A stretch of 64,000 bases of DNA, taken from a virus (taxonomy: Duplodnaviria; Caudoviricetes). The notes under the pieces were generated by a model, which was not told where the DNA came from, made no database searches, and was given only the letters and a program-made list of their open reading frames with translations. Made by a program: the position numbers and the translations under genes. Below, in pieces: positions 3,223 to 44,463 of this stretch (position 1 is its first letter; the number at the start of each line of letters is the position of its first letter). Location of the stretch: positions 1-64,000 of IMG/VR virus record IMGVR_UViG_2932480793_000001. One strand, given 5' to 3'.

Positions 3223-4212
3223 TTAGGTGTTGGGGACCTGGAGCTTGTCCCAGGTGGTCTTGCCGGGCGGCCACTTGGCGGCGGTGCCGCTGTAGCCGCA
3301 CTTCCGCTGCCAGGCTTCGTAGGAATCGACATCGGCTTGGCCGAGTTCGGGGCCGGGGCCGACCTTGTACTTGCCGCAGCCGACGGCGACGAGGCGCTTC
3401 CCCATGGCGGTGAAGATCGGGGATCTCTTGCCAAGGGCGGGCCGGCTGCCGTTGAGAAAGAAGCTGGCCCCGGGGTAGGGCTCGTACTTCGCGGTGGGGG
3501 GCTTCGTGCCGGAGTCCGGCTTGCTGCTCGTGGGGACCTTGAGCTTCTGGCCGATGCTGATGGTGTTGGGGTTCTTGAGCCCGTTCAGCTTCGCCAGGTT
3601 GTCCACTGTGGTCTTGTGGGCGGTCGCGATGCTGGTGAGGGTGTCGCCCTTCTTCACGGTGTACGTGCCGCTCGACGCGGGGGGCTTGGTGCCGGACTCG
3701 TCGCTGCCGCCCGGGCGGGGTGCGCCCTTCTTGACCCAGGCGTAGAGGGGGCCGCCGGGGCAGGCGGTGGCGTATCCGTCGCGGTGCCCCTTGATCTCGT
3801 TGCCCGCTCCGTTGCCGCGGAGGAGGTCGATGCCGTCGCGGATCGCGGAGAGCATGGCATCCGGCGGCTCGGTGAGGCCGCTGCTGCCGACTAGTCCGAC
3901 GATGGCGTAGTGGGCGATGTTGAGCGCCTGGTTGCCGTTTGCTCCGGTGCGCTTCCGGAGGCCGCGCCCCTCCAGCAGGTAGCCGTGCGGGCAGGCGGCG
4001 TAGTTGTAGGCGACGTCGCTGTAGCCCTCGACCTTGTTCGCGAGGTGGCTGCGGCGGATGTCCTTCCACAGGGCGAGGCACTCGCCGTGGTCGCCGAGGA
4101 GCTTCACGCTGACGGGCGACCCGAGGTAGTGGACCTTGACGCCCTTGGCAGTGGATTGGGACGGGGCGGCGGAGGTGGGCCATCCGAGTTGGGCTCTGGT
4201 GACGAGCTTCAT
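3223..4212 (-). CDS. Endolysin: PGRP-like N-acetylmuramoyl-L-alanine amidase + LysM + C-terminal peptidoglycan-binding domain
   Basis: VKVHY...YSDVAYNY...LLEGRG...GHRD..ATACPG amidase motifs; [13 protein letters not shown]...[14 protein letters not shown] LysM. Confidence 0.93.
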
Positions 4213-4260
4213 GGGTGTCTCCTGCGGGGTGGCGGGGTACTGGCCCGCATCGACCGTTGG

Positions 4261-4307
4261 CCTTTGAATCATAGGCTTTTGAATCGCATATGCCTACGAT
4301 TCCAAGG
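4261..4307. promoter_or_regulatory. Paired 15-bp imperfect palindromes (consensus CCTTTGAwTCAAAGG) upstream of the lysis operon
   Basis: CCTTTGAATCATAGG at 4261-4275 and CCTACGATTCCAAGG at 4293-4307; the motif recurs at 26265-26279. Confidence 0.6.
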
Positions 4308-4425: not shown

Positions 4426-5052
4426 ATGACTGACCCAGCCCCCGCCGAAAAATCTCGCCCAGAGCTGACCGTCCTCGACATCAAGAGGACGCCACGCGGC
4501 GAGGCCGAGCACATCACCGTCTCGCTGGAGGATTCGACCCGTCCGGGCCTTCAAGTCCGGTTCGACTACGCGCTCATCGTCCGCCAGCTGAATGGACCGG
4601 TGGGCATCCACGTCGAGGGCGCGGCCGGGCAGGATGGGACGCTTCCCCGACTTGGTGTGGCGATACTGCGTGATCTGCCGATCGCACGCTGGGAGCGCGT
4701 AGCCCGCCTGGCGGCGACTGTGGGCCCCCTTGACGGCCTTACCTACTCGCACAACGTGAAAGCGGACGCCGAGCGGCTTGTTCGCTCCCTACACCCTGGA
4801 GTCGACCCGCGTTCAGGTAAAGCCGGGGCTCGCCGGTGGCGACGACTGACCAAGCTGGCCGAGGTGTCCTTGGCCTACTACCGGGCTCAGATGTCAGGCG
4901 TGCATCGGTACGCAGAAGCGGTTGCCGAGGAGCGGGATGTAGCTCCTGCGACCGTGCGGAGCTGGATCTTTCAGGCGCAGCGCGAAGGCATCACGACAGA
5001 AATCGTGTGGGCCTTCCTGTCCGCCCCCGCCCAGGCGGCCTCCAATGCCTGA
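4426..5052 (+). CDS. Putative regulator with C-terminal HTH (DUF6214-like)
   Basis: ATG after GGGAG; C-terminal AEAVAEERDVAPATVRSWIFQAQREGI is HTH-like. Confidence 0.6.
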   Translation: MTDPAPAEKSRPELTVLDIKRTPRGEAEHITVSLEDSTRPGLQVRFDYALIVRQLNGPVGIHVEGAAGQDGTLPRLGVAILRDLPIARWERVARLAATVGPLDGLTYSHNVKADAERLVRSLHPGVDPRSGKAGARRWRRLTKLAEVSLAYYRAQMSGVHRYAEAVAEERDVAPATVRSWIFQAQREGITTEIVWAFLSAPAQAASNA

Positions 5053-5372
5053 GCGGATCATTGGCCCCGCTGGGAGCGTTGCCGCCAAGAACGTGCGGCG
5101 CATCCGCGAATTGCGCGGCCTTACCAAGAAGGCGCTCGCGGAACGAACCGGCGCTGCCGGGTGTCCCATCCCGCCACTCGGAATCTCGCGCATCGAAAAG
5201 GGTGAGCGGCGTATCGACGTCGACGACCTTCTCGCACTGGCGCAGGCTCTCCAGGTTCCCTACGCACAACTGGTCGAGCCCCCGCCGCCGTGCACGTCCT
5301 GCCACGGGGCCCCACCCATCGGCTTCATGCCTCGCCTGCGGGGCCACTGCTGAAGGAGAGACAGGTGTCTGA
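5045..5372 (+). pseudogene. XRE-family HTH regulator with C-terminal Zn ribbon, apparently frameshifted near 5327
   Basis: NVRRIRELRGLTKKALAE...ISRIEKGERRIDVDDL is an XRE HTH. CTSCHGAPPIGF continues as CLACGATAEGETGV* only in another frame. Confidence 0.6.
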
Positions 5373-5898
5373 GCCCGATCTCATCACCAAGGACGACTAC
5401 GCGCGCGTCGCGGACGTGAGCCCCCGCACGATCGATCGCTGGGCCAAGCGAGGCATCGGCCCACAGCCCAGACGTCTGGGCCCTAGGCTCCTGCGCTACA
5501 ACCGAGCGGAAGTCCTCGCCTACGTCGGCGGTTCGGGCGCAAGCCCTCTGGCCCTGGGAGACGCCGTCTTCGAGGCGGGCACAGTCGCCGGAGGCCAGAT
5601 ACTCGACGGCATCAAGCGGAAGCTGGAGTCACGGGCGGCGACCTCCACCCGCCTCCCCCACGTGGTGATCCGGAACGCCGACGAACTGCGCCTCGCCAGC
5701 GGGGACACCACCGTTGTCACCGGCGGCCCCGACAGCACGCTCCTCATCGACGGCATCAAGTACGCCATATCCAACGAGGACCCCGTCGTCATCCGCCCCC
5801 ACGGCCCCGGCATCGACGGCGGCACGATCACCCTCACCCTCATCTGCGGCAGCATCCTCGGAGAGAACGAGCCCGAGCAGGAGGCCCCCGATGCCTGA
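5365..5898 (+). CDS. AlpA/excisionase-like HTH protein with tape-measure-like linker and C-terminal beta domain
   Basis: GTG after AAGGAG; LITKDDYARVADVSPRTIDRWAKRGIGPQPRRLGPRLLRY is an AlpA/Xis pattern. Confidence 0.75.
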   Translation: MSEPDLITKDDYARVADVSPRTIDRWAKRGIGPQPRRLGPRLLRYNRAEVLAYVGGSGASPLALGDAVFEAGTVAGGQILDGIKRKLESRAATSTRLPHVVIRNADELRLASGDTTVVTGGPDSTLLIDGIKYAISNEDPVVIRPHGPGIDGGTITLTLICGSILGENEPEQEAPDA

Positions 5899-6562
5899 CG
5901 TTCAGGGCCACTGCCCGGCGTGTGGTGCTGCCAGCCTGTTCCTCGGTGAGGGCGGGCACGTCACCTGCGCCCGCATCGAATGCCCCAACCCATGCGCCGC
6001 CGACGACCTGCTGCACGGGGGCGAAGCAGCGCTCGTGCAGGCCCTGGGCGGGGACCGAACCGCGCGGCTCATCGCCTACAACCTGCACTGCCACGGGCAC
6101 TCCCTCGCCGACGTGCGCCGCATGACCGACGACGAGTTCCGGGCCGTGCCCGGCATCGGAGACACATCCCTCGCGACCATCAGGCGGGCGTTCCCGGAGT
6201 GCACCACCGGAAGCGACGCGCGCCAGCAGCCGCCCGTTGTCGCGACTGCACGCGTTGCCCTCGATGTTGCCGTGACGGCAGCTGACTACGCCCTCGCGCG
6301 CGCGTCGGCCAAGCCGTCCGCCGCACGCGACCTGGCAAAGCTTCGGCGACACGCGGCGAGAGTCACGCAGAAGACCGACGCAACCGTCACCGTGGCCCCC
6401 TACGGCGAGGGGTACCAGGTCACCATCACCCGGGCAGGCGGTAAGACCCGCCATGGCGGATACGGCTTCGAGGCCGTCCAGGGCATGCTCCTTGGCGTCA
6501 TGGCAGCCGCGGACTACCGCCAGAAGCAAACTCCCCCAACCGAGGAGGCTCCGGATGCCTGA
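5891..6562 (+). CDS. Zn-finger (DUF6085-like) + RNA polymerase alpha-CTD-like helix-hairpin-helix protein
   Basis: CPACG...CARIECPNP, then SLADVRRMTDDEFRAVPGIGDTSLATIRRAF. Confidence 0.6.
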   Translation: MPDVQGHCPACGAASLFLGEGGHVTCARIECPNPCAADDLLHGGEAALVQALGGDRTARLIAYNLHCHGHSLADVRRMTDDEFRAVPGIGDTSLATIRRAFPECTTGSDARQQPPVVATARVALDVAVTAADYALARASAKPSAARDLAKLRRHAARVTQKTDATVTVAPYGEGYQVTITRAGGKTRHGGYGFEAVQGMLLGVMAAADYRQKQTPPTEEAPDA

Positions 6563-13360: not shown

Positions 13361-14302
13361 TCAGGCGGCCAGGTAGCGGGGCTGGTACGCCATGCGGACA
13401 GAGGTGGCCGATGTGGATCCGGCCACGGTGAGGGTGAGCTCGTTGACGCCCGTTTCCAGGGGCCACAAGGCTGAGGCGTTGGACAGGTTCGGCCACAGGT
13501 TCGTGATCCCGTTGAGGAGGGCCGTCTGGCGGCGTTCCCGGGTGTCGATGACGATCGTGTCCGCGCCGGTGATCGTGCGGGTGAGGACGAGGGTCTGCCC
13601 GGTCGTGGTGTTGGTGAGGGTGACCGACGTGGCCGGGCCCTTGATCGTCCACACGGGAAAGGCGTCGTCGTCGCCGTCGTTGTCGACGGTCACTGACCCC
13701 AGCACCTGGGAGTCGCCCACCACGAGCGGCAGAACCGGGAAGAAGTCGCCGCCCGTGCTGTTCTTCCACTCCGTGGTGACCTCTCCCCCAGTCCAGTAAG
13801 GAGACGGGGCAGCGAAGGTGATCACGCCGATGCACCAGCGTCGGCCCGCGGCGTCGAGGGACTCGTCGCCTTCCATGCCGTCCTGATAGCGGACCCCGAT
13901 GCTGCGGGCGTCCCCGTCGGGCTGGGTGAGGGTCAGGGTGCCCTGCCCGCGCTTCGGGTTGAGAGAGCGGATGAAGGTGCGGCGGCGGGCCAGGTAGGCG
14001 GCTCTGCTGTCGTTGGCCCAGAACGCGATCGGGATGCTGATCGTTTTGCCCTGAGCGCGGATCTGGCGTACTTCGTAGCCGTCGATGCCGGGTGATTCGT
14101 CGGTGGCCATGGCGTAGTCGGGCATGTCGAGGCCCTTGATGCCGGGTTGCACCACCCAGCCGCGTTCCCAGTCCGTGAGGAGCGTCGTGGCACCGCCGGG
14201 GTCGGTGAAGGACACCAGGGGCATCTCGACGACGCGCTGCGGCCACTCCCACGGGGGCTGCTGCTCCTCGGGTGGGATCGATGAGGCGACCAGAATCGGC
14301 AT
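13361..14302 (-). CDS. Distal tail protein (Dit)
   Basis: Directly after the TMP; VDNDGDDDAFPVWTIKGP and LETGVNEL motifs. Confidence 0.85.
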   Translation of the reverse strand: MPILVASSIPPEEQQPPWEWPQRVVEMPLVSFTDPGGATTLLTDWERGWVVQPGIKGLDMPDYAMATDESPGIDGYEVRQIRAQGKTISIPIAFWANDSRAAYLARRRTFIRSLNPKRGQGTLTLTQPDGDARSIGVRYQDGMEGDESLDAAGRRWCIGVITFAAPSPYWTGGEVTTEWKNSTGGDFFPVLPLVVGDSQVLGSVTVDNDGDDDAFPVWTIKGPATSVTLTNTTTGQTLVLTRTITGADTIVIDTRERRQTALLNGITNLWPNLSNASALWPLETGVNELTLTVAGSTSATSVRMAYQPRYLAA

Positions 14303-17300
14303 CAGTTGGCTCCGCTCATGACCGGGCGGTGAAGCATGTCGTCCTGCGCCAGGGCATCGAGGATGCTGCGCTTCGAGGCGACCTCGGTGACCCGGGCGTT
14401 GTAGTTCAGGACCCGGTCGCCACTGGTGTTGTTGACCGAGCTGACCTCGGTGCGGGCAACGGTGGCCGCGGCAGTCGACCGAACGACGCGGGCCATGGAT
14501 GCTGCCGCAGCGGCGGCCTGCGGGATGGTGTCGCGGACACCACGGACGAACCCGAGCCCCGTGAACCGGCCGAGGCCGGCGAGAACCTGAGACGGAGACT
14601 TGATCTTCAGTTCGACCTTGATGGTCTTCTGGATCTTCTTCGCCAGGTCGGCCATCGCCTTCACGATCGCCTTCTCCTGCGCCACCAGCCCCGTCAGGAA
14701 GCCCTTCCCTGCCATGGATCCGGCGTCGTACATGGCGTCCGCAGCGGCGCTGCCGTAAGCGGAGGTGGCCTTCCCGATCTGGACCTGGGTCGCGTTGATC
14801 GACTTCAGCTGGGCGTCGGTCGCCTTCACCAACGCCGCGGCGTAGGGCGCGCCCTGGTCGGGGCCGGCGGCGATGATCTGCCCGATGAGAGCCTTCGACA
14901 GGCCGCGCTTGCCCAGGATTTCCAAGTTCTTCGAGAACGCGTTGAGCTGCCCGAGGCGCACCTGAAGGCCGTTGAGGATGCCATCCGCGCCGAAGGGCAG
15001 CCCACTGTTCGGGAGGCTGGTCAGGGATGCGAAGCTGGCCGCGTTGGTAGTCGTCTCGGCGGCAAAAGCCTTGGCTTGGCTGATCTTTGCGGCGATGGTG
15101 TCGCGCTGCTTCGCCAGGGACTGCAGCGTCTTGTTCTGGGTGGTGAGCTGCCGGACCAGCTTGTCGTCGAGGGTGGTCTTCACGCCCTTGAAAGCGTTCT
15201 TCACCGCGGTGGCGACCTGGGTCATGGCCTTGTCGATCGCGGACGCCGTCCCAGCCAGAGCCTTGAGGAAGTTCGCCCCGACGCTGGCCGCGATGGGCCC
15301 GGTGTCGATGCTCTTCCCGCCCACCCGGATGACACCACCCGTGGCGTAGCCGGAGCCCCGCCGGAACCCGGTGCTGATCTGTACCCCGCCGACGATGCCG
15401 CCTAGGGCGTAACCACCGGGCCGGTTGTACGCCGACGACAGGCTGCCGTAACGGGACAGGGCGTAGCGCATGGAGGCGTAGATGTTCGCCATCGGGTCGA
15501 CGCTGACCCCGTACAGCTTGGGCCCGGTCTTGCGGTACTTCCCGGCGTAGGCGTCGAACGTGGGCCGGATGACCTGCATCAGGCCGACGGACGGGGTGCC
15601 GTTGATCCAGTTGATGTCGTTGCGGTTGACCGCCTTGGGGTTACCGCCCGACTCCTGGTTCATGCGGCGCAGCGTCGTGTTCACCAGCGACAGGGACTGA
15701 CCGACCTGTCCCAGCGCCTGGGTGACGACGCCACGGAACCGCTCCACCCCGGCACCGCCACTGCCGCCGTCACCGCCTCCTTCGAGGTACCGCATGGGGT
15801 CGACGGTCTTGCCTTTGATGCGGGCTTCGAGATGCAGGTGGGGGCCGGTGGTGTTGCCGGTGGCGCCGACCCGTCCGATCTGCTGGCCGCGCTTCACCGT
15901 GTCCGACGCGCGCGCGAGCATCGCGGACATGTGCGCGTAGAGGGACGACAGGCCGCTGCCGTGGTTGATCTCGATGTGCTTGCCGTAGGGCCCCGAGTCG
16001 ATAGCCTGCCGGACGATGCCGGAGTCGACCGCCCGGATCGGCGTGCCGGTCTTCGCCGGGAAGTCCAACCCGGTGTGCCGGCCGCTGGACCACATGAGTC
16101 CCGGCTTGCCGAAGGGGGTGCCGTAGGGGGCGGACACGGGCTTGAGCCACTGTCCGGTGCCTTCGACGATGTCCTTGCCGCGGATGTAGTCGATGGCCTT
16201 GTTGATGAGCCCGATCGGGGCCTGTCCGATCATGCCGGGCCAGGTGCCCTTGTTCTTCCCGAGGGCTTTGGTGATGCCTTTCTTGACCGGGGAGAACGCG
16301 GACTCGGCGAGGTCGGCCAACCCGCCGCGGGCGACGTCGGCGCCCTTGGAAAGGACGTTGCCGACGGCGTTGGTGATGCCGTCGAAGATGCCGCCCTCGG
16401 CGAACCCGCGGAACGCCCGGAGGGACTGGCCGCGCATGGCAGCCTGGTTGACTGCGTGGAGCCGCGCCCGCTCGTAGGGGTCGCGCATGGCTTCGGAGAC
16501 GTACACGCCTTCGCCGCGGCGCATGGGCACGAGCTGGTCGTCGCCCTGACGCCACGTGCTGAACCCCGGCAAGATCCCGCCGCGGGCAAAGCCCTTCGGG
16601 AGGTTCATTTCCTTCAGCGGATCGATGCCAGGGATCTTCGCCGCGGTCTTGTTCCAGACGGAGACGATGCCCTTGTTGTAGACGACGTCGATCCAGAACT
16701 TGATCGGGGCTTTGACGAGGTCTTTCAGCCCGTCCCAGATCTTCCCGAGGTTCTTCTTCAGGGTGTTGAACGCCCCGGACAACTTCTCGGCGAAGTTGTC
16801 GAAGCCGCGGCGGACGGAGCCCCAGGCGTCGGACGCGGTGGTCTTGATGTTGTTCCACAGCCCGGACCAGGCGCCAGCGACCTTCTCCCGGATCCAGTTG
16901 AAGATCCGGATGGCCCCGTTGCGCAGGTCCGTGAACCAGCGGATGGCCCCGTTGACAATGTCGGGGATGACGGAGTGCCCGAGGAGGAAGTCATAGAGCC
17001 ACTCGAAGGCCCCCGCGATCTTCTCCGTGACCCACTTGATTGCGTCGACGGCCGGGCCCAGCTTCTCCCGCAGCGCGGTCATGTGCTCGATGAACTTCGT
17101 CATCGCCGGAACGACAATCCCGGTGATCACCATGACGGCGAGCTGAGTCAGCAGCGTCGAGAACTGGATCATCGGCGGCAGCAGCGGCAGCAGCGCAGGC
17201 AACAGCTCGACGATGAACATGGTGCTGAGCAGCAGCAACTGCGGCAACAGCGGGGCGAGGGCGAGCAGGATCTGCCCGATGGCCTGGCCGAGCTGGATGA

Positions 17301-20166
17301 ACGCCGGAATCAGCATCGGCAGGACCGGCAACAGTTGCTGGAGGAGGTTCAGGAACTGGGCGGCGAACTGCTGTGCCAGCTCGGATATGACCGCGGCCAG
17401 GCCCTCGATGATCGGTGTGAGGATCGGGCCGAGTTGGGCGGCGATCTGTGCGATGACCGGTGCCAGGGCGTTGAAGACGGTCACCAGCATGTTGAAGATC
17501 GGGGTGACCAGGGGCAGCAGGTCACCGATCAGCTTCCCGAGGACGGGGAGGAGCGGCGACACGGCCTTGACTAGGGCGATGATCGCCTGAGCGGCCACCA
17601 CCAGGACCGGGCCCAGCGCTTCCGCGACAGGGAGAAGCGCCTCCCCCAGGGTGGCGAAGAGGTCGCTGACGGCGGGGCCCAGGAGCTTCGCTACCTGCGT
17701 CACCGACGGGGCCAGCGCCGCCAGCACCGGCAGGACTGCTTGGATGGCGTCACCGAGCGCGCCGGCGATAAGCCCGGCAACGGCCTGAACAGCAGAGAAG
17801 ATCGCTGCCAGCGAGGCTTGCACCTCGGGCAGGGCGGTGACCCGGCGGATCTCCGCCAGGGCGGATCCGATGATGGCGAAGAAGTCGCCGCCCCCATCAG
17901 CGGCGGCCCCGAAGACGTTCTTGATGATGCCGCCGAGGTCTGCCAGCACCCCGCTGAACTGGACGGCAATGTCGAGGGCTGTGTTGATCGCCTCTTCGAG
18001 CCTGCCGTTCTCCAGTCCCTCGGCAAGCTTGGCCATGACCCGGTCCATGGCCTCACCCGCACCACGGGTGAGGCGGTCCCAGGCAGGGCCGGCTGCGATG
18101 GTGAGCTGGGACAGACCCGTGACGATCTGGCCCGGGACTTGGACGAGGTTCCCGAGCCCGTTGCGGATGACGTCGAACGTGCCTTTGAGCTGCCCGGTGC
18201 GTTCCAGGGTGTCGACAGCGGTAAGGGCGTTCTTCGCCATGTCTCTGAGCTCGCCAGCGGCTCCGACGAACCCGGCCCGGACGGTGGGCAGGATGCGCCC
18301 GCCGACGGCCTGGAGGCGGCTGCCGAGCCCGGCGAAGAGGGCGTCCTGCACGTCGAGCTTCATGGCCCGCCAGGCAGGTGCCATGGCCTGGAGGGTGCTT
18401 ACGAAGCCGCGGGCGTTCGGGCTGAGCTTCGAGATCGCGTCGTCGAGCTTCGTGGTCTGCGTGGCCGCAGTCTGCTGGGCGTCCGCAACAGCGCGGGTGG
18501 CGTCGGCGACAGCGCGGTGGGCGTCGACCAGACCACGCTGCTGCTCAGCGACCTGCTCGTTCGCCGACCGGATACGTTCCTGCGCCTGCACCACCGCGTC
18601 GGAGCCGGCGACCCCGGCCCGGTTCGCGGCGGCGGTGTCGACTTGGAGGCGCTTCTGCTGCCGGGACTGCTCTTCGGCCGCCGCCCGGGCCCGCTCCAGT
18701 GCAAGGTCGGCCTGCTGGATCTGCAACTGGGTGGCGGTCGGGTCGGAGCGGGTTTTCGCGAGGTCGAGTTCGGCCTGCTCGATGTCGAGTGCGGCCTGCT
18801 TCTGGTCGAGTGCGCCTTGGCGGAGGCGCTGGTTCATGTCCTCCAGGTCGCGGGCGGCTTGCCTGCGGGCGGCGGACAGTTCCTGCTGCGCCTGCCGGGC
18901 GGTGCGCTGGGCCTGGGACAGGTTGCGTTCGGCGTCGGCAACACCGCGCTGCGCGTTAGCAAGGGACCGCTGGGCGGTTTCGACCTGCCGGGTCGCTGTG
19001 ACTGCGGCCTTCGCTTCGGCCGGCGCCGGGTTGAACGCGGCTTTGATGGCGTCGCCGACCCCGGACGTGCCCAGCTTGATGGCGCCGAACGCGGTGGCGA
19101 GTGTGAGGATGCCGGGGGCTGCGACAGCAGCGAGGGGCCCCATCTGGGCGATTGCCTGCCCCATCGCGGACAGTTGGGGTGTGGCGAGGAGCGCCGCGGC
19201 GGCGAGCTTCGCTATGCGTCCGGTGAGGATCCCGGCCTGGGCGGATGCGCTGCCGCCGCTTCCACCGAAGCTGCCGAGGGCTGAGGTGATTCCGGCGAGA
19301 CCGAACAGGCGTGTGCGGATGTTGACGGTGCGGTCGCGGGCAACGTGGTTGAGGGCGGTGTTCGCTGCGGCGGTGTCGGCTCGAGCTGCGACGCGGACGG
19401 TGCGCCGGCGGGTGAGGTTGCTGATGTCGTCGGCGGCGACCCGGGTGTCGACGTCGACACCGACACGGACGCGCTGCCGTTGGGTAAGGCCGCGGAGTTC
19501 GTTAGCAGCCACTCGGGTGTCGAGGGTGGCGCGGATTTGAACGAAGCGGTCGGCGGTGAGTTTATCGAGGGCCTTCTCAACGCGCTTGTACGCCGCATCG
19601 TTGATCTTGGCGACGATGTCGACGGTGGTCTGCCCGAACCCGGCGAGCTTCGCTTTGGCGGCGGTGTCGTCGACCTGCGCCGTGATCTTCACTGTGCGGT
19701 CGGCGCTCAGCTTCCCGAGCGCCGCCTTCGCCGCCGTGTCGTCGAGTTGGGCAGTGATCTTCACGGTGCGCTGGTCCGTGAGCCTGCCCAGCCCGGCGCG
19801 CGCCGCGGTGTCGTCCAGTTCGGCTCGGACCTTCACCGTGCGGTCCCGAGTCAGGCGGGTCAGTGCAGTGGTGGCCGCCTTGTCGTCCAACTCGGCGGTG
19901 ATCTTGACCGTGCGCGTCTTGGTCAGCTTGGTGAGCTTGGCCTCAGCCACGGTGGTCATCAGGTCGACACCGACGCGCACGGTGGGTGTGGCGGCTGCGA
20001 GCTTCCGTCGGATCCCGTCGAGGATCTGGTCTCCGGCGACTTCCCCGGCGAGCTTGGCGGGCTGGCGGATCGCGGAGGGCAGCTCGACACGGAGCCGGTC
20101 GCCGAACTGGGTCGTGTCCGGGATGAGGCTCACCCGGGTGGATCCGACGAGTGTCGGCTCGGCCAT
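14302..20166 (-). CDS. Tape measure protein with M23 peptidase and lytic transglycosylase domains
   Basis: 1954 aa, helical and repetitive; HTGLDF...YAHMS...GPHLHLE (M23); ESGGNP...GLMQVI (SLT). Confidence 0.95.
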   Translation of the reverse strand: MAEPTLVGSTRVSLIPDTTQFGDRLRVELPSAIRQPAKLAGEVAGDQILDGIRRKLAAATPTVRVGVDLMTTVAEAKLTKLTKTRTVKITAELDDKAATTALTRLTRDRTVKVRAELDDTAARAGLGRLTDQRTVKITAQLDDTAAKAALGKLSADRTVKITAQVDDTAAKAKLAGFGQTTVDIVAKINDAAYKRVEKALDKLTADRFVQIRATLDTRVAANELRGLTQRQRVRVGVDVDTRVAADDISNLTRRRTVRVAARADTAAANTALNHVARDRTVNIRTRLFGLAGITSALGSFGGSGGSASAQAGILTGRIAKLAAAALLATPQLSAMGQAIAQMGPLAAVAAPGILTLATAFGAIKLGTSGVGDAIKAAFNPAPAEAKAAVTATRQVETAQRSLANAQRGVADAERNLSQAQRTARQAQQELSAARRQAARDLEDMNQRLRQGALDQKQAALDIEQAELDLAKTRSDPTATQLQIQQADLALERARAAAEEQSRQQKRLQVDTAAANRAGVAGSDAVVQAQERIRSANEQVAEQQRGLVDAHRAVADATRAVADAQQTAATQTTKLDDAISKLSPNARGFVSTLQAMAPAWRAMKLDVQDALFAGLGSRLQAVGGRILPTVRAGFVGAAGELRDMAKNALTAVDTLERTGQLKGTFDVIRNGLGNLVQVPGQIVTGLSQLTIAAGPAWDRLTRGAGEAMDRVMAKLAEGLENGRLEEAINTALDIAVQFSGVLADLGGIIKNVFGAAADGGGDFFAIIGSALAEIRRVTALPEVQASLAAIFSAVQAVAGLIAGALGDAIQAVLPVLAALAPSVTQVAKLLGPAVSDLFATLGEALLPVAEALGPVLVVAAQAIIALVKAVSPLLPVLGKLIGDLLPLVTPIFNMLVTVFNALAPVIAQIAAQLGPILTPIIEGLAAVISELAQQFAAQFLNLLQQLLPVLPMLIPAFIQLGQAIGQILLALAPLLPQLLLLSTMFIVELLPALLPLLPPMIQFSTLLTQLAVMVITGIVVPAMTKFIEHMTALREKLGPAVDAIKWVTEKIAGAFEWLYDFLLGHSVIPDIVNGAIRWFTDLRNGAIRIFNWIREKVAGAWSGLWNNIKTTASDAWGSVRRGFDNFAEKLSGAFNTLKKNLGKIWDGLKDLVKAPIKFWIDVVYNKGIVSVWNKTAAKIPGIDPLKEMNLPKGFARGGILPGFSTWRQGDDQLVPMRRGEGVYVSEAMRDPYERARLHAVNQAAMRGQSLRAFRGFAEGGIFDGITNAVGNVLSKGADVARGGLADLAESAFSPVKKGITKALGKNKGTWPGMIGQAPIGLINKAIDYIRGKDIVEGTGQWLKPVSAPYGTPFGKPGLMWSSGRHTGLDFPAKTGTPIRAVDSGIVRQAIDSGPYGKHIEINHGSGLSSLYAHMSAMLARASDTVKRGQQIGRVGATGNTTGPHLHLEARIKGKTVDPMRYLEGGGDGGSGGAGVERFRGVVTQALGQVGQSLSLVNTTLRRMNQESGGNPKAVNRNDINWINGTPSVGLMQVIRPTFDAYAGKYRKTGPKLYGVSVDPMANIYASMRYALSRYGSLSSAYNRPGGYALGGIVGGVQISTGFRRGSGYATGGVIRVGGKSIDTGPIAASVGANFLKALAGTASAIDKAMTQVATAVKNAFKGVKTTLDDKLVRQLTTQNKTLQSLAKQRDTIAAKISQAKAFAAETTTNAASFASLTSLPNSGLPFGADGILNGLQVRLGQLNAFSKNLEILGKRGLSKALIGQIIAAGPDQGAPYAAALVKATDAQLKSINATQVQIGKATSAYGSAAADAMYDAGSMAGKGFLTGLVAQEKAIVKAMADLAKKIQKTIKVELKIKSPSQVLAGLGRFTGLGFVRGVRDTIPQAAAAAASMARVVRSTAAATVARTEVSSVNNTSGDRVLNYNARVTEVASKRSILDALAQDDMLHRPVMSGAN
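19665..19920 (-). repeat. 24-aa (72-bp) tandem repeats near the TMP N-terminus
   Basis: RTVKITAELDDKAA / RTVKVRAELDDTAA / RTVKITAQLDDTAA / RTVKITAQVDDTAA. Confidence 0.8.
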
Positions 20167-20180
20167 GCTGCCCTCCCCTC

Positions 20181-20675
20181 CTACGGTGCTGCTTCGAGTT
20201 CGCGGAGCTTGCTGGCCCAGTGGTCGATCTCCGCTTGATCGGTCTGGGTGCCGGGTGAGAACTGGTTGAGGACTGCCTCGGAGTAGGCGACTCCGGCGGC
20301 TTCAAGTTCGGCCTGCCGCTCGTCGACCTCGGTGGCCGGCGACTCAACAGGTGGCATGTCCGGCGGGTCGCCCTTGAGGTGGGCGGCCCACAGGACCCGG
20401 ATCATGAGGAGGAGCGCGTTGTACTGGGCTGCTTGCAGGTAGGTGTCCTGCGTCCAGCGGCGACCCTCCAAGTCCCCGGCGGTGGCCGCTTTCGTCGCGG
20501 AGTCCTCCGGGAGGTGTTGGACCAGGTCGCGGAGTTCGGCCCAGTTCATGGACCCCTCACCCCAGGACATGGCCCAGAACTCTTCTAGGCGGCGGCCGGG
20601 GTAGTACCGCTGGAGGTCGGCGCGGACGGCTCCGGGGTGCTCTCGGAGGAGCTGGAGGAGCCAGAGCCTTCCCCC
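20181..20675 (-). CDS. Tail assembly chaperone, frameshifted C-terminal part (G-T fusion)
   Basis: The -1 frame from GGGGGAA (20669-20675) is open to 20181: RLWLLQLLREHPGAVRADLQRYY...MSWGEGSMNW. Confidence 0.8.
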   Translation of the reverse strand, partial: GGRLWLLQLLREHPGAVRADLQRYYPGRRLEEFWAMSWGEGSMNWAELRDLVQHLPEDSATKAATAGDLEGRRWTQDTYLQAAQYNALLLMIRVLWAAHLKGDPPDMPPVESPATEVDERQAELEAAGVAYSEAVLNQFSPGTQTDQAEIDHWASKLRELEAAP

Positions 20676-20998
20676 TGGGTGGTGCCCGCCTCCTCGTTCA
20701 TCTCGTCGAGGATGTCCTTCAGTTCACCGAGGGTGAGCTTGGCGACGGACACCAGCCGGTCGAAGGCGTCCTTGGGTCGGGCGATCTCGCGGAGGACGTT
20801 GAGGTTGGCGTTGCCGCCCTTCTCCTCGACCTCCTCGATGACCTCCAGCGGCCAGTTGTCCTGCACGGGGAACGAGCAGGTCTCTTCGACGCCGTCGGTG
20901 TTCTCGAAGACGACGTCGAGGAACTGGACCTTGGCAGCGGAGGCGCGCTGGGCGCGCATCTGCTGCAGCCGGATGACCTTGCGGTTGGGCTTGGACAT
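20585..20998 (-). CDS. Tail assembly chaperone (G)
   Basis: Between tail tube and TMP; low-complexity Ser/Pro tail after the slippery site. Confidence 0.85.
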   Translation of the reverse strand: MSKPNRKVIRLQQMRAQRASAAKVQFLDVVFENTDGVEETCSFPVQDNWPLEVIEEVEEKGGNANLNVLREIARPKDAFDRLVSVAKLTLGELKDILDEMNEEAGTTQGEGSGSSSSSESTPEPSAPTSSGTTPAAA

Positions 20999-43154: not shown

Positions 43155-43688
43155 GTGACTGAAGGGCAGTGGAGCGGTTCGTCAACGCCCTACCTGGGCG
43201 CTGATCAGGGAGACGTCTGGGGGAAGGAGGCCGCCGCGAAGGGCAAGCTGGGCACCCAGCGACTCCTCGGCGTGGGGCGTCAGATCCCAAACGGCGACAT
43301 TGCTCGGCACTTGCAAGTCCAGGCTGGCGGGGAAGTCGTCGAGCGGCAGCGGCTGATCCTGCTGGACGAGGAACCAGTCGAGATCGCGACGTCCTACTGG
43401 CCTGTCATCCTCGCGGGCGACACGCCGCTAGCTCGCCCCGCCAAGATCCGGGGCGGCGCGGTCTCGCTCCTGGCATCCCTCGGGTACACGCCAGGCAGCA
43501 TCGACGAAGAGATCGCAACGAGGCCCCCCACTGGCAGCGAAGCTGAAGCCCTCGGGCTCACCGCAGGGGAATGGGTACTCATCCTCACCCGCATCATCCG
43601 TGCCGCTACCGGGGAGCCCTACGAGGTCTCAGTCATGGTCAGCCCCGGCCGCATTGGGCGGCTCCACTACTCGATGAAGGTTGGCTGA
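43155..43688 (+). CDS. Stand-alone UTRA domain protein
   Basis: VVERQRLILLDEEPVEIATSYWP...KIRGG...EEIATRPPT...EPYEV; no N-terminal HTH. Confidence 0.8.
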   Translation: MTEGQWSGSSTPYLGADQGDVWGKEAAAKGKLGTQRLLGVGRQIPNGDIARHLQVQAGGEVVERQRLILLDEEPVEIATSYWPVILAGDTPLARPAKIRGGAVSLLASLGYTPGSIDEEIATRPPTGSEAEALGLTAGEWVLILTRIIRAATGEPYEVSVMVSPGRIGRLHYSMKVG

Positions 43689-43689
43689 C

Positions 43690-44463
43690 ATGACGAAAGA
43701 ACTCGACGAAGAGAGCGTCTGGCCCGTCCAGGACCAGATCGCCTCCTACCTACGCGAGAGAATCCTCGACGGCGACATCGAACCGGACGGCAGAGTGCCA
43801 TCGAGCCGCCAGCTGTACGAGCTGTTCGGCGCGGCAGCCCAGACCATCAAGAACGCCGTGGCGATCCTGGAGAAGGAAGGGCTCGTCTATACGAAGCGCG
43901 GCTCTGGGGTCTACGCCAGGCAGCACCGCCAGCGCACGATGACGCCGGCCGAGTTCAAGAATCCGCCGACGGACGGCGGCAAGTACCAGTGGATCAGCGC
44001 CGCCGAACGCAAAGGCATGTCGGCACGGTCAGAGCTCTTGGACGTCGAGGAGGTGGAGCCCCCCGCCCTGGTGCGTAATGCACTAAACCTCGGCGACGGC
44101 GAGAAGGCGATCTTGCGGCGCCAAGTCCTTCACCTGACAGAGGGAGGACGCGACGAGCCATGCGAACTGGTTGAGGTCTACATCCCTCTGACGTTGGCCG
44201 AGGGGACGCCGATCGCTGAAGCACGCAAGATCAAGGGGGGTACTGGCCGAGTCCTCCTGGAGGCCGGACTCCCGCCTCTTCGGTGCGTTGACAAGGTGGC
44301 GGCGCGCTGGCCAACACCTCGTCAGGCGAGGGCGCTTCGGATGCCCACGAAGCTGCCCGTACTGCGTCAGTTCCGGGTGACGTACAGCGTGAACGACCGC
44401 CCCATCCAGGCCGAGTTCATGGTCAAGGCAGGCCACCTCTATGAGCTGGAGTACGACTTCTAG
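43690..44463 (+). CDS. GntR/HutC-family repressor (KorSA/TraR-like)
   Basis: QIASYLRERILDG...VPSSRQL...EGLVYTKRGSGVY plus UTRA; divergent from the tra operon. Confidence 0.9.
   Translation: MTKELDEESVWPVQDQIASYLRERILDGDIEPDGRVPSSRQLYELFGAAAQTIKNAVAILEKEGLVYTKRGSGVYARQHRQRTMTPAEFKNPPTDGGKYQWISAAERKGMSARSELLDVEEVEPPALVRNALNLGDGEKAILRRQVLHLTEGGRDEPCELVEVYIPLTLAEGTPIAEARKIKGGTGRVLLEAGLPPLRCVDKVAARWPTPRQARALRMPTKLPVLRQFRVTYSVNDRPIQAEFMVKAGHLYELEYDF

What the first reader, a model, noticed from the sequence alone, without database searches (positions are those of the whole stretch)
5575..5625. Tape-measure N-terminal motif copied inside an AlpA/excisionase-like DNA-binding protein
Seen: residues 71-87 of the 5365-5898 protein (AGTVAGGQILDGIKRKL) match TMP residues 40-56 (AGEVAGDQILDGIRRKL, 20049-19999) at 14 of 17 positions. 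Several identical residues use different codons (ATA/ATC, GGC/GGG, CTG/CTC), which suggests the peptide rather than the DNA is conserved. The motif links the HTH to a separate C-terminal beta domain. Inference: a TMP mimic could bind tail chaperones, the terminator or TMP oligomers. It could then couple tail assembly to transcription, block tail assembly of related phages, or decoy a TMP-sensing defence. I know of no described system with this architecture.
Basis: partly seen in the sequence, partly recalled or inferred. Interest (0 to 1): 0.75.

Follow-up and report, generated by a model that had tools for sequence, protein, structure and literature searches.

The report
Tape-measure-like helix in a phage regulator
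A small accessory DNA-binding protein of a Streptomyces phage joins its two folded domains with a short helix that closely resembles the start of the phage's own tail tape-measure protein; the resemblance is real, but whether it does anything for the tail is untested.

Summary
Residues 71-87 of the 177-aa protein at 5365-5898 match tape-measure protein (TMP) residues 40-56 at 14 of 17 positions.

Chance is unlikely but not excluded. With BLOSUM62, 19 of 345 shuffled proteomes reach the score. With a short-match matrix, 0 of 398 do. In 4 of 4 whole Streptomyces genomes that carry a close TMP, the TMP N-terminus is the segment's best genome-wide hit.

The protein has three parts: a BldC/Xis-type HTH, a ~35-residue helical connector holding the motif, and a small beta domain. 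The connector shuffles as its own unit among three architectures.

The gene is accessory. Six of 7 related viral records with the same TMP lack it. In the one paired relative the TMP motif changed (D to N) and the connector did not.

The best reading is an old TMP-derived or TMP-like segment kept as an inter-domain helix. Earlier scan notes describe a similar TMP-motif copy in P1-like phages on other DNA. Interest is moderate.

The parts
5365..5898 (+). Gene for P0001, 177 aa, GTG start with a GGAG a few bases upstream. It is a three-module accessory DNA-binding protein.
   Evidence: Homologues of 177-179 aa start at the same position.
5365..5532 (+). Residues 1-56: BldC/Xis-type winged helix-turn-helix.
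   Evidence: AF2 pLDDT is 92-97 for residues 1-50. Foldseek matches BldC 6ama/6amk, Pukovnik Xis 4j2n, RdfS 8dgl and the GIsul2 excisionase 8c3t, with TM by target 0.67-0.84. phmmer against PDB finds BldC at E 2.2e-4. phrog_66 'excisionase and transcriptional regulator' E 2.8e-7. Pfam HTH_17 and MerR score below their cut-offs.
5536..5643 (+). Residues 58-93: connector module, predicted as a helix, that shuffles as its own unit.
   Evidence: The same segment occurs in HTH+connector+beta domain (P0001, P0004-7), HTH+connector+other C-terminus (P0012, L001/L002) and other N-terminus+connector+other C-terminus (P0013). P0008-11 have the beta domain without it. Helix 61-91 has pLDDT 42-69.
5575..5625 (+). 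Residues 71-87: the TMP-like core, the stretch named in the finding.
5662..5844 (+). Residues 100-160: small all-beta domain with no Pfam family. It also ends many other mosaic Streptomyces prophage proteins.
   Evidence: AF2 pLDDT is 92-95 for residues 101-150 and 85 for 151-160. Related proteins are, with no Pfam hit on this part. There is a weak LptA/OstA-like structural lead only, TM 0.51-0.56.
14302..20166 (-). Tail tape-measure protein, 1954 aa, with M23 peptidase and SLT domains.
   Evidence: phrog_4197 matches the N-terminus.
19999..20049 (-). TMP residues 40-56: the N-terminal motif matched by the connector.
   Evidence: Only A40 and G41 (invariant) and G45 and I48 (nearly invariant) hold across 30 TMPs of 59-91% identity. 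The exact form occurs only in the closest clade.
14686..14748 (-). TMP residues 1807-1827: a second, C-terminal motif of the same pattern, weakly matched by connector residues 63-83.
   Evidence: The surrounding region is conserved in TMPs of 74 phage records, including Listeria A118 and Streptomyces GoblinVoyage, and in the staphylococcal 80alpha TMP 6v8i.
5045..5353 (+). Upstream Cro/CI-type HTH gene (HTH_3) on the same strand.
5891..6562 (+). Downstream gene (DUF6085-like N-terminus). Its ATG overlaps the P0001 stop in GATGCCTGA.
20181..20998 (-). Two tail assembly chaperone ORFs just upstream of the TMP.
   Evidence: phrog_8595, phrog_3656 and others.

Best explanation
P0001 is an accessory, mosaic DNA-binding protein of a temperate Streptomyces siphovirus. 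It consists of a BldC/Xis-type winged HTH, a ~35-residue helical connector and a small beta domain of unknown function. The connector is a real, non-random look-alike of the N-terminal helix of the phage's own TMP. It also resembles, more loosely, a second motif near the TMP C-terminus.

Most likely a short piece of TMP coding sequence, or a TMP-type helix, was captured long ago by illegitimate recombination within this phage lineage. It has since been kept as the helix that joins and spaces the two domains, and it moves as its own unit when modules are swapped.

Shown: the similarity, its conservation, the independence of the module, the fold of the two domains, and the sporadic distribution. 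Inferred: the TMP as donor (the skeleton is old in TMPs, while the connector family is small and young), the role as a connector, and the lack of any role in tail assembly.
For: Similarity beyond chance:
- PAM30 gives 45.6 bits against 30.3 for the next pair, and 0 of 398 shuffles reach it.
- The connector profile scores the TMP N-terminus at 24.1 bits, against a maximum of 13.5 in 1,500 shuffled proteomes.
- The TMP N-terminus is the top genome-wide hit in 4 of 4 Streptomyces genomes with a close TMP, and the only P0001-like match in 6 related viral records.

Old rather than recent: codon identity is 9, against 7.6 +/- 1.7 expected.

TMP as the likely source: the AG..AG..I skeleton is conserved across TMPs down to about 50% identity. 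The connector family has only about 9 clusters, all close to one another.

Independent module: three architectures share it. Window-to-L001 DNA identity is 83 of 90 in the connector against 143 of 180 in the HTH.

Linker position: helix 61-91 lies between two domains with pLDDT above 90.

Accessory: the gene is absent from 6 of 7 related viral records and from 5 of 5 Streptomyces genomes searched.
Against: - With BLOSUM62 the match is marginal: 19 of 345 shuffles reach it, and hhalign gives only 34% probability.
- Residue shuffles ignore the local structure of real proteins.
- This finding was picked from a very large scan, so some chance matches of this strength are expected somewhere.
- A plain connector does not explain why the core QILDGIKRKL is as invariant as the cores of the folded domains. 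It is one of the four longest invariant runs.
- The helix shows no significant amphipathic or heptad pattern: 28% of shuffles reach its hydrophobic moment. A self-association role therefore has no support.
- The helix has low model confidence.
- No DNA remnant of the transfer exists, so the donor and the direction are inferred only.
Confidence: 0.5

Rival explanations
1. Chance or convergent resemblance. Two unrelated Ala/Gly-rich helices in a high-GC proteome happen to agree at 14 of 17 positions, and each is conserved for its own reasons.
For: In BLOSUM62 all-vs-all searches, 19 of 345 shuffled proteomes reach 30 bits. hhalign gives P = 4e-4 for one pair among roughly 2,700 possible pairs, with probability 34%. 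Codon identity is not above expectation. The finding was selected from a scan of very many windows. Only A40, G41, G45 and I48 are deeply conserved in TMPs.
Against: With PAM30, 0 of 398 shuffles reach 45.6 bits, and the shuffle maximum is 36.3. The profile score of 24.1 compares with a shuffle maximum of 13.5. Five real Streptomyces genomes give no background hit above 14.5 bits, while the TMP gives 19.9-21.8. The connector matches the derived form found in its own phage lineage. The second-best hit in the whole proteome is again in the TMP.
Confidence: 0.2
2. Functional TMP mimic. The connector presents the TMP N-terminal helix to a TMP partner (chaperone, terminator, TMP trimer) or to a host TMP sensor. 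It would then act as an exclusion factor against related phages, as a decoy against a TMP-sensing defence, or as a link between tail assembly and transcription.
For: - The core motif is invariant in 7 of 7 carriers and as conserved as the domain cores.
- The gene is accessory, mosaic and co-oriented with a Cro/CI-type regulator. This is typical of exclusion or counter-defence genes (the typicality is my inference).
- TMP-binding defences exist: SNIPE (PMC13190303, passages read) and an Avs family activated by TMP (PMC12803255, passages read).
- The TMP N-terminus is essential in TP901-1 and is thought to contact the terminator or connector (PMC5099701, passages read).
- Unchecked scan notes describe TMP-motif copies in SimA-like proteins of P1-like phages.
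Against: - No interaction evidence of any kind was obtained.
- There is no co-variation in the one testable pair: the TMP changed D to N and the connector did not.
- K84 in the connector against R53 in the TMP is a fixed difference in all carriers seen.
- Most phages with this TMP lack the gene.
- By inspection P0001 has no signal peptide, unlike the known TMP-directed exclusion proteins. Its motif sits between two domains rather than on a free tail.
Confidence: 0.12
3. DNA-level recombination joint. The connector sequence is kept mainly because it is a shared stretch at which homologous recombination swaps the flanking modules, in the same way as the conserved start/stop junctions of this cassette.
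For: Module breakpoints lie on both sides of the connector. Window-to-L001 DNA identity is higher in the connector (83 of 90) than in the HTH (143 of 180). A conserved GATGCCTGA stop/start overlap recurs at 5890 and 6554, against 0.41 expected, and many relatives end in ...DA and start with MP.
Against: Only two DNA sequences of the family could be compared, so the identity difference is anecdotal. Of the 5 change events I count in the connector from the alignment, 3 are non-synonymous, so the DNA is not frozen. This reading does not explain the likeness to the TMP.
Confidence: 0.1

Closest known systems
BldC of Streptomyces (PDB 6ama, 6amk) and small phage/ICE excisionases (Pukovnik Xis 4j2n, RdfS 8dgl, GIsul2 excisionase 8c3t)
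   Same: The N-terminal 56 residues have the same winged-helix fold (TM by target 0.67-0.84, rmsd 1.3-3.9 A). They show detectable sequence similarity to BldC (E 2.2e-4). phrog_66 'excisionase and transcriptional regulator' matches at E 2.8e-7.
   Different: Those proteins are single-domain proteins of 52-72 residues. P0001 adds a 35-residue helix and a beta domain. No integrase was found in the record. Pfam HTH_17 scores below its cut-off (20.2 against 27 bits).
MerR-family regulators with a C-terminal effector domain (BrlR 5xql/5xbt, CadR, SoxR, MerR)
   Same: The order of parts is the same: winged HTH, long helix, C-terminal domain. BrlR chains are ranks 1 and 4 in Foldseek by E-value, and several other MerR-family chains are listed. 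Pfam MerR and MerR_1 give weak hits.
   Different: TM-scores are only 0.21-0.30 by query. The Pfam scores are below the cut-offs. The helix shows no heptad or amphipathic signal. The C-terminal domain is unrelated.
Conserved terminal motifs of siphovirus tape-measure proteins (this TMP family; Listeria A118, Streptomyces GoblinVoyage, staphylococcal 80alpha gp57 6v8i)
   Same: The pattern A-G-x-x-A/S-G-x-x-x-h-x-G-h occurs in the connector, in the TMP N-terminus and in the TMP C-terminal region. It occurs nowhere else in the 17,357-aa proteome, against 0.028 expected; the pattern was designed after the fact. The C-terminal region is conserved in 74 phage records.
   Different: P0001 is not a TMP. 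It has 177 aa, lies in a regulator cassette and shares only 17-25 residues with the TMP.
SimA-like secreted proteins of P1-like phages that carry a copy of a motif from the Sit tape-measure protein
   Same: An accessory prophage protein carries a short, conserved copy of a motif from the phage's own tape-measure protein.
   Different: Those proteins are exported, carry the motif on a flexible tail and sit at a known superimmunity locus. P0001 is a cytoplasmic HTH protein with the motif between two domains. I did not test those notes.

Membership tests
Xis/AlpA/BldC-type HTH (Pfam HTH_17, PF12728) | Sequence match to the family profile above the curated cut-off | tested here: not met
   HTH_17 scores 20.2 bits against a cut-off of 27. 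The homologue P0005 carries a precomputed PF12728 hit.
Xis/AlpA/BldC-type HTH (Pfam HTH_17, PF12728) | Winged-helix fold of BldC and Xis | tested here: met
   Foldseek gives probability 1.00 and TM by target 0.74-0.84 to BldC, Pukovnik Xis and the GIsul2 excisionase, and 0.67 to RdfS. phmmer finds BldC at E 2.2e-4.
Recombination directionality factor (excisionase) | Works with an integrase encoded in the same element | tested here: not met
   No PF00589 or PF00239 match in the 72,492-nt record. The record is 92% complete by CheckV, so an integrase could lie in the missing part.
Recombination directionality factor (excisionase) | Small single-domain protein (about 50-80 aa) | tested here: not met
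   P0001 has 177 aa and three modules.
MerR family | Profile match above the cut-off | tested here: not met
   MerR scores 19.8 against 28.2 bits. MerR_1 scores 16.3 against 21.6 bits.
MerR family | Long antiparallel coiled-coil dimerisation helix after the HTH | tested here: inconclusive
   A 31-residue helix is predicted, but at low confidence. It has no amphipathic or heptad signal. Dimer prediction was not possible.
Tape-measure protein | Long, mostly helical protein encoded after the tail chaperones, with length matched to the tail | tested here: not met
   P0001 has 177 aa, lies on the opposite strand about 14 kb from the tail chaperones, and shares only 17-25 residues with the TMP.
TMP-motif mimic or decoy (no established family; scan notes on P1 SimA/Sit) | Motif copy co-varies with, or binds partners of, the cognate TMP | tested here: inconclusive
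   In the one paired relative the TMP has D to N and the connector is unchanged. Binding is not testable here.

The most novel reading that the evidence does not exclude
P0001 is a prophage-encoded molecular mimic. Its connector displays the N-terminal helix of the tape-measure protein in the cytoplasm. There it could titrate a TMP partner (chaperone, terminator or TMP trimer) of superinfecting relatives, or blunt a host sensor that recognises a short TMP motif. Its DNA-binding domain might tie this to transcription. It would be the Gram-positive, cytoplasmic counterpart of the TMP-motif copies that this scan noted in P1-like phages.
Probability: 0.12. Interest if true: 0.8.

Novelty: new variant of a known kind. 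Interest (0 to 1): 0.4.

Why it matters
If the connector is only a captured helix, this is a clear small example of how phage mosaicism can reuse about 100 nt of a structural gene as a linker in a regulator. That is of interest mainly to people who study phage genome evolution.

If the helix keeps TMP-like binding, it would be a new kind of phage-encoded interference or counter-defence acting through tape-measure mimicry. This comes at a time when TMP-sensing defences have just been described: SNIPE (PMC13190303) and a TMP-activated Avs family (PMC12803255).

The system is small and easy to test, because it needs only one 177-aa protein and one 17-residue motif.

Tried and rejected
- Known phages: tblastn of P0001 and of the TMP N-terminus against 50,697 phage records gave no match.
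- Species-representative genomes: the connector/HTH family was not found. 493 pattern matches were made, and none was a relative.
- First AF2 run with 11 sequences: unusable, pLDDT 45. It was replaced by a 150-sequence run.
- Coiled-coil or dimerisation helix idea: the hydrophobic moment and heptad occupancy are no better than in shuffles. I dropped this as a claim.
- Recent DNA copy or gene conversion: rejected by the codon test.
- Excisionase role: no integrase in the record.
- Beta domain function: no Pfam family. The Atlas gives only a weak LptA/OstA-like structural lead. Foldseek found nothing for that domain.
- Third word-index protein search: not run, because its E-value ceiling of 10 cannot list 20-30-bit motif hits.
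- Genus-wide background search: not run. After I searched 5 genomes by handle instead.
- Supplementary files of the three papers were not opened. They may hold TMP regions bound by SNIPE or Avs that bear on the decoy idea.
Full report
WHAT IS THERE. The window is the first 64,000 nt of a 72,492-nt linear virus record estimated to be 92% complete. It has 68% G+C. Its protein relatives are all from Streptomyces.

The gene at 5365-5898 (+) encodes a 177-aa protein, P0001. It follows a Cro/CI-type HTH gene at 5045-5353. It is followed by a DUF6085-like gene whose ATG overlaps its stop codon. An endolysin gene lies at 3223-4272 on the minus strand.

The 1954-aa protein at 14302-20166 (-) is the tape-measure protein (TMP). 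It carries M23 peptidase and SLT domains. Its N-terminus matches phrog_4197. It sits directly after two tail-assembly-chaperone ORFs and a major tail protein gene.

THE OBSERVATION. Residues 71-87 of P0001 and 40-56 of the TMP agree at 14 of 17 positions, at the stated coordinates. BLASTP gives 30.0 bits and a pairwise E of 1e-4. A second, weaker hit joins P0001 63-83 to TMP 1807-1827 (9 of 21 identical, E 0.055). With a short-match matrix the alignment extends to 25 columns, 18 identical with one 2-residue gap.

Of the 14 identical residues, 9 share a codon, against 7.6 +/- 1.7 expected from the record's own codon usage. The DNA therefore carries no trace of a recent copy.

IS IT CHANCE? I asked this in five ways.
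1. BLOSUM62 all-vs-all over 74 predicted proteins (17,357 aa). The hit is the second-best non-self pair, behind a true paralogue pair, and the next pair scores 27.3 bits. However, 19 of 345 residue-shuffled proteomes produce a non-self pair of at least 30 bits (1 of 45, 18 of 300). By this test the match is marginal.
2. PAM30 (blastp-short), which suits short near-identical matches. The hit scores 45.6 bits against 30.3 for the next pair. None of 398 shuffled proteomes reaches it; their maximum is 36.3, and 5 reach 35.
3. A profile HMM of the connector (residues 58-93) built from 7 homologues. It scores the TMP N-terminus at 24.1 bits. The next-best hit in the whole proteome is the TMP C-terminal motif at 2.3 bits, and everything else scores 0.5 or below. 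In 1,500 shuffled proteomes the maximum was 13.5 bits.
4. Profile against profile (hhalign). This gives P = 4e-4, probability 34%, over 27 columns (61-87 against 30-56). That is weak once the number of possible pairs is considered.
5. Real sequence as the null. Four whole Streptomyces genomes (7-9.6 Mb) hold a close TMP (N-terminus 81-93% identical). In all four, the best six-frame hit of the 42-residue connector genome-wide is that TMP N-terminus (19.9-21.8 bits). Nothing else exceeds 14.5 bits. A fifth genome, whose TMP N-terminus is only 51% identical, gives nothing above 13.1 bits.

Taken together, the likeness is unlikely to be chance within one phage genome. Two cautions remain. Shuffles are a lenient null. 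This case was also picked out of a very large scan, in which a few chance matches of this strength are expected. I put chance or convergence at about 0.2.

WHAT THE PROTEIN IS. With a 150-sequence alignment, AlphaFold2 gives two confident domains. Residues 1-50 have pLDDT 92-97, and residues 101-150 have pLDDT 92-95 (85 for 151-160). They are joined by a long helix, 61-91, of low confidence (pLDDT 42-69).

The first domain has the fold of BldC, mycobacteriophage Pukovnik Xis, RdfS and the GIsul2 excisionase (TM by target 0.67-0.84). It is detectably similar in sequence to BldC (E 2.2e-4) and to phrog_66. Pfam HTH_17 and MerR both score below their cut-offs. No tyrosine or serine recombinase was found in the record. 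I therefore call it a BldC/Xis-type DNA-binding domain and not an excisionase.

The beta domain has no Pfam family. It has only a weak LptA/OstA-like structural lead.

An exhaustive HMMER search found 209 proteins at E <= 1e-3. Nearly all match either residues 1-60 or residues 95-170 alone. The beta domain ends many mosaic Streptomyces proteins that begin with other modules, such as a Zn-ribbon/DUF6085 module or a helix-hairpin-helix-like stretch.

THE CONNECTOR IS ITS OWN MODULE. Only about 9 clusters carry any part of the P0001 arrangement. They fall into four groups:
- Five are full-length (79-85% identical).
- P0012 and the viral loci L001/L002 have the HTH and the connector followed by an unrelated C-terminus.
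- P0013 has another N-terminus, the connector and that same other C-terminus.
- P0008-P0011 have the beta domain behind other N-termini and no connector.

The core QILDGIKRKL is invariant in 7 of 7 carriers. Among the 5 full-length proteins, 113 of 177 columns are invariant. The 10-residue core is one of the four longest invariant runs (14, 13, 10, 10). It is therefore as constrained as the domain cores, although the family is shallow.

At the DNA level, the window and L001 are 83 of 90 identical in the connector against 143 of 180 in the HTH. Similarity ends abruptly after the connector.

THE TMP SIDE. I listed 120 TMP relatives, out of 132 found among 990 candidates. All share a conserved N-terminus. 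The exact QILDGIRRKL form is limited to the closest clade. More distant TMPs keep only the skeleton.

Among seven viral relatives the peptide is kept through many synonymous changes. This indicates selection on the peptide.

A pattern that I designed after the fact hits exactly three places in the proteome: the connector, the TMP N-terminus and the TMP C-terminal region. The expectation from shuffles is 0.028. Of the 120 TMPs, 48 have both N- and C-terminal hits, 62 have the C-terminal hit only, 2 have the N-terminal hit only and 8 have none.

The C-terminal region is conserved in TMPs of 74 phage records, including Listeria A118 and Streptomyces GoblinVoyage. It is also conserved in staphylococcal phage 80alpha gp57 (6v8i, E 2.2e-4). 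The connector therefore resembles a recurrent TMP feature, and most closely the version in its own phage lineage.

DISTRIBUTION AND CO-VARIATION. Seven viral records hold a TMP N-terminus 89-96% identical to this one. Only one of them (G001, also reached as L001) has a P0001 relative. In the other six the only P0001-like sequence is the TMP motif itself (E about 3e-4 per record). None of the five Streptomyces genomes searched has the connector. The neighbouring DUF6085-like gene is itself present in only 3 of 5 of these records. The cassette is therefore variable.

In G001 the TMP motif reads QILNGIRRKL while the connector keeps QILDGIKRKL. This is one data point against co-variation.

HOW IT MOST LIKELY WORKS. 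My best reading (confidence 0.5) is as follows. A short TMP-derived or TMP-type helix was captured long ago. It now serves as the helix that links a BldC/Xis-type DNA-binding domain to a beta domain in an accessory, fast-shuffling regulator.

What is shown: the likeness, its age (no codon signal), the module's independence, the folds and the sporadic distribution. What is inferred: the donor, the connector role and the lack of any tail function.

I considered a MerR-like dimerisation helix. I do not claim it.

The mimic, decoy or exclusion reading (0.12) stays open. Three things keep it worth a bench test: the conservation of the core, the gene's accessory and mosaic nature, and newly described TMP-binding defences. 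Those defences are SNIPE (PMC13190303, passages read) and a TMP-activated Avs family (PMC12803255, passages read). In TP901-1 the TMP N-terminal 154 residues are essential, and the N-terminus is thought to contact the terminator or connector (PMC5099701, passages read).

A DNA-level recombination-joint reading (0.1) fits the breakpoints and the conserved GATGCCTGA junctions. It does not explain the TMP likeness.

COMPARISON AND NOVELTY. Each part is familiar: a BldC/Xis fold, mosaic prophage cassettes and TMP terminal motifs. The combination of a TMP-like helix between an HTH and a beta domain was not found in my three full-text searches. Their terms were:
- 'tape measure protein', mimic, Streptomyces, prophage (at least 3 of the 4 terms);
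- 'tape measure protein', 'superinfection exclusion', target;
- 'tape measure protein', 'tail assembly chaperone', N-terminus, 'tail terminator'.

Earlier unchecked notes of this scan describe an analogous TMP-motif copy in secreted SimA-like proteins of P1-like phages on other DNA. I did not test them. They raise my prior that such copies recur. I rate this a new variant of a known kind, with interest 0.4.

Noticed in passing
window 5890-5898 and 6554-6562: Two successive genes end and the next begins in the same 9-nt stop/start overlap, GATGCCTGA. There are 2 matches against 0.41 expected, and 4 of 100 shuffles reach 2. Many related mosaic proteins end in ...DA and begin with MP. This could be a conserved translational-coupling junction that also serves as a recombination joint.
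   Followed up: partly
window ~19300-19920 (-), TMP residues ~84-290: Directly after its N-terminal motif the TMP has about nine tandem repeats of roughly 23 residues, of the type RTVKITAELDD..A...L.RLT (read by eye). No repeat tool was run.
   Followed up: no
window 5662-5844 (+) and proteins P0134-P0225: The C-terminal beta domain of P0001 has no Pfam family. It recurs at the end of many mosaic Streptomyces prophage proteins behind Zn-ribbon/DUF6085 and other modules. There is only a weak LptA/OstA-like structural lead.
   Followed up: partly
window 43155-43688 and 43681-44463 (+): These adjacent genes are paralogous (62 bits, 29% identity over 157 residues). They are the strongest non-self pair in the record. 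Other scan notes call them a GntR/UTRA set.
   Followed up: no
whole record (72,492 nt): No tyrosine or serine recombinase profile match was found in a record rated 92% complete. Other first-reader notes call the phage integrative. The integrase may lie in the missing part, or the element may be maintained in another way.
   Followed up: partly
L001 10001-10540 (viral record G001): A relative carries the HTH and connector fused to a different C-terminal module rich in Cys/His (…CMSSHCVEGDHF…). The same module is seen in P0012 and P0013. Its function is unknown.
   Followed up: no
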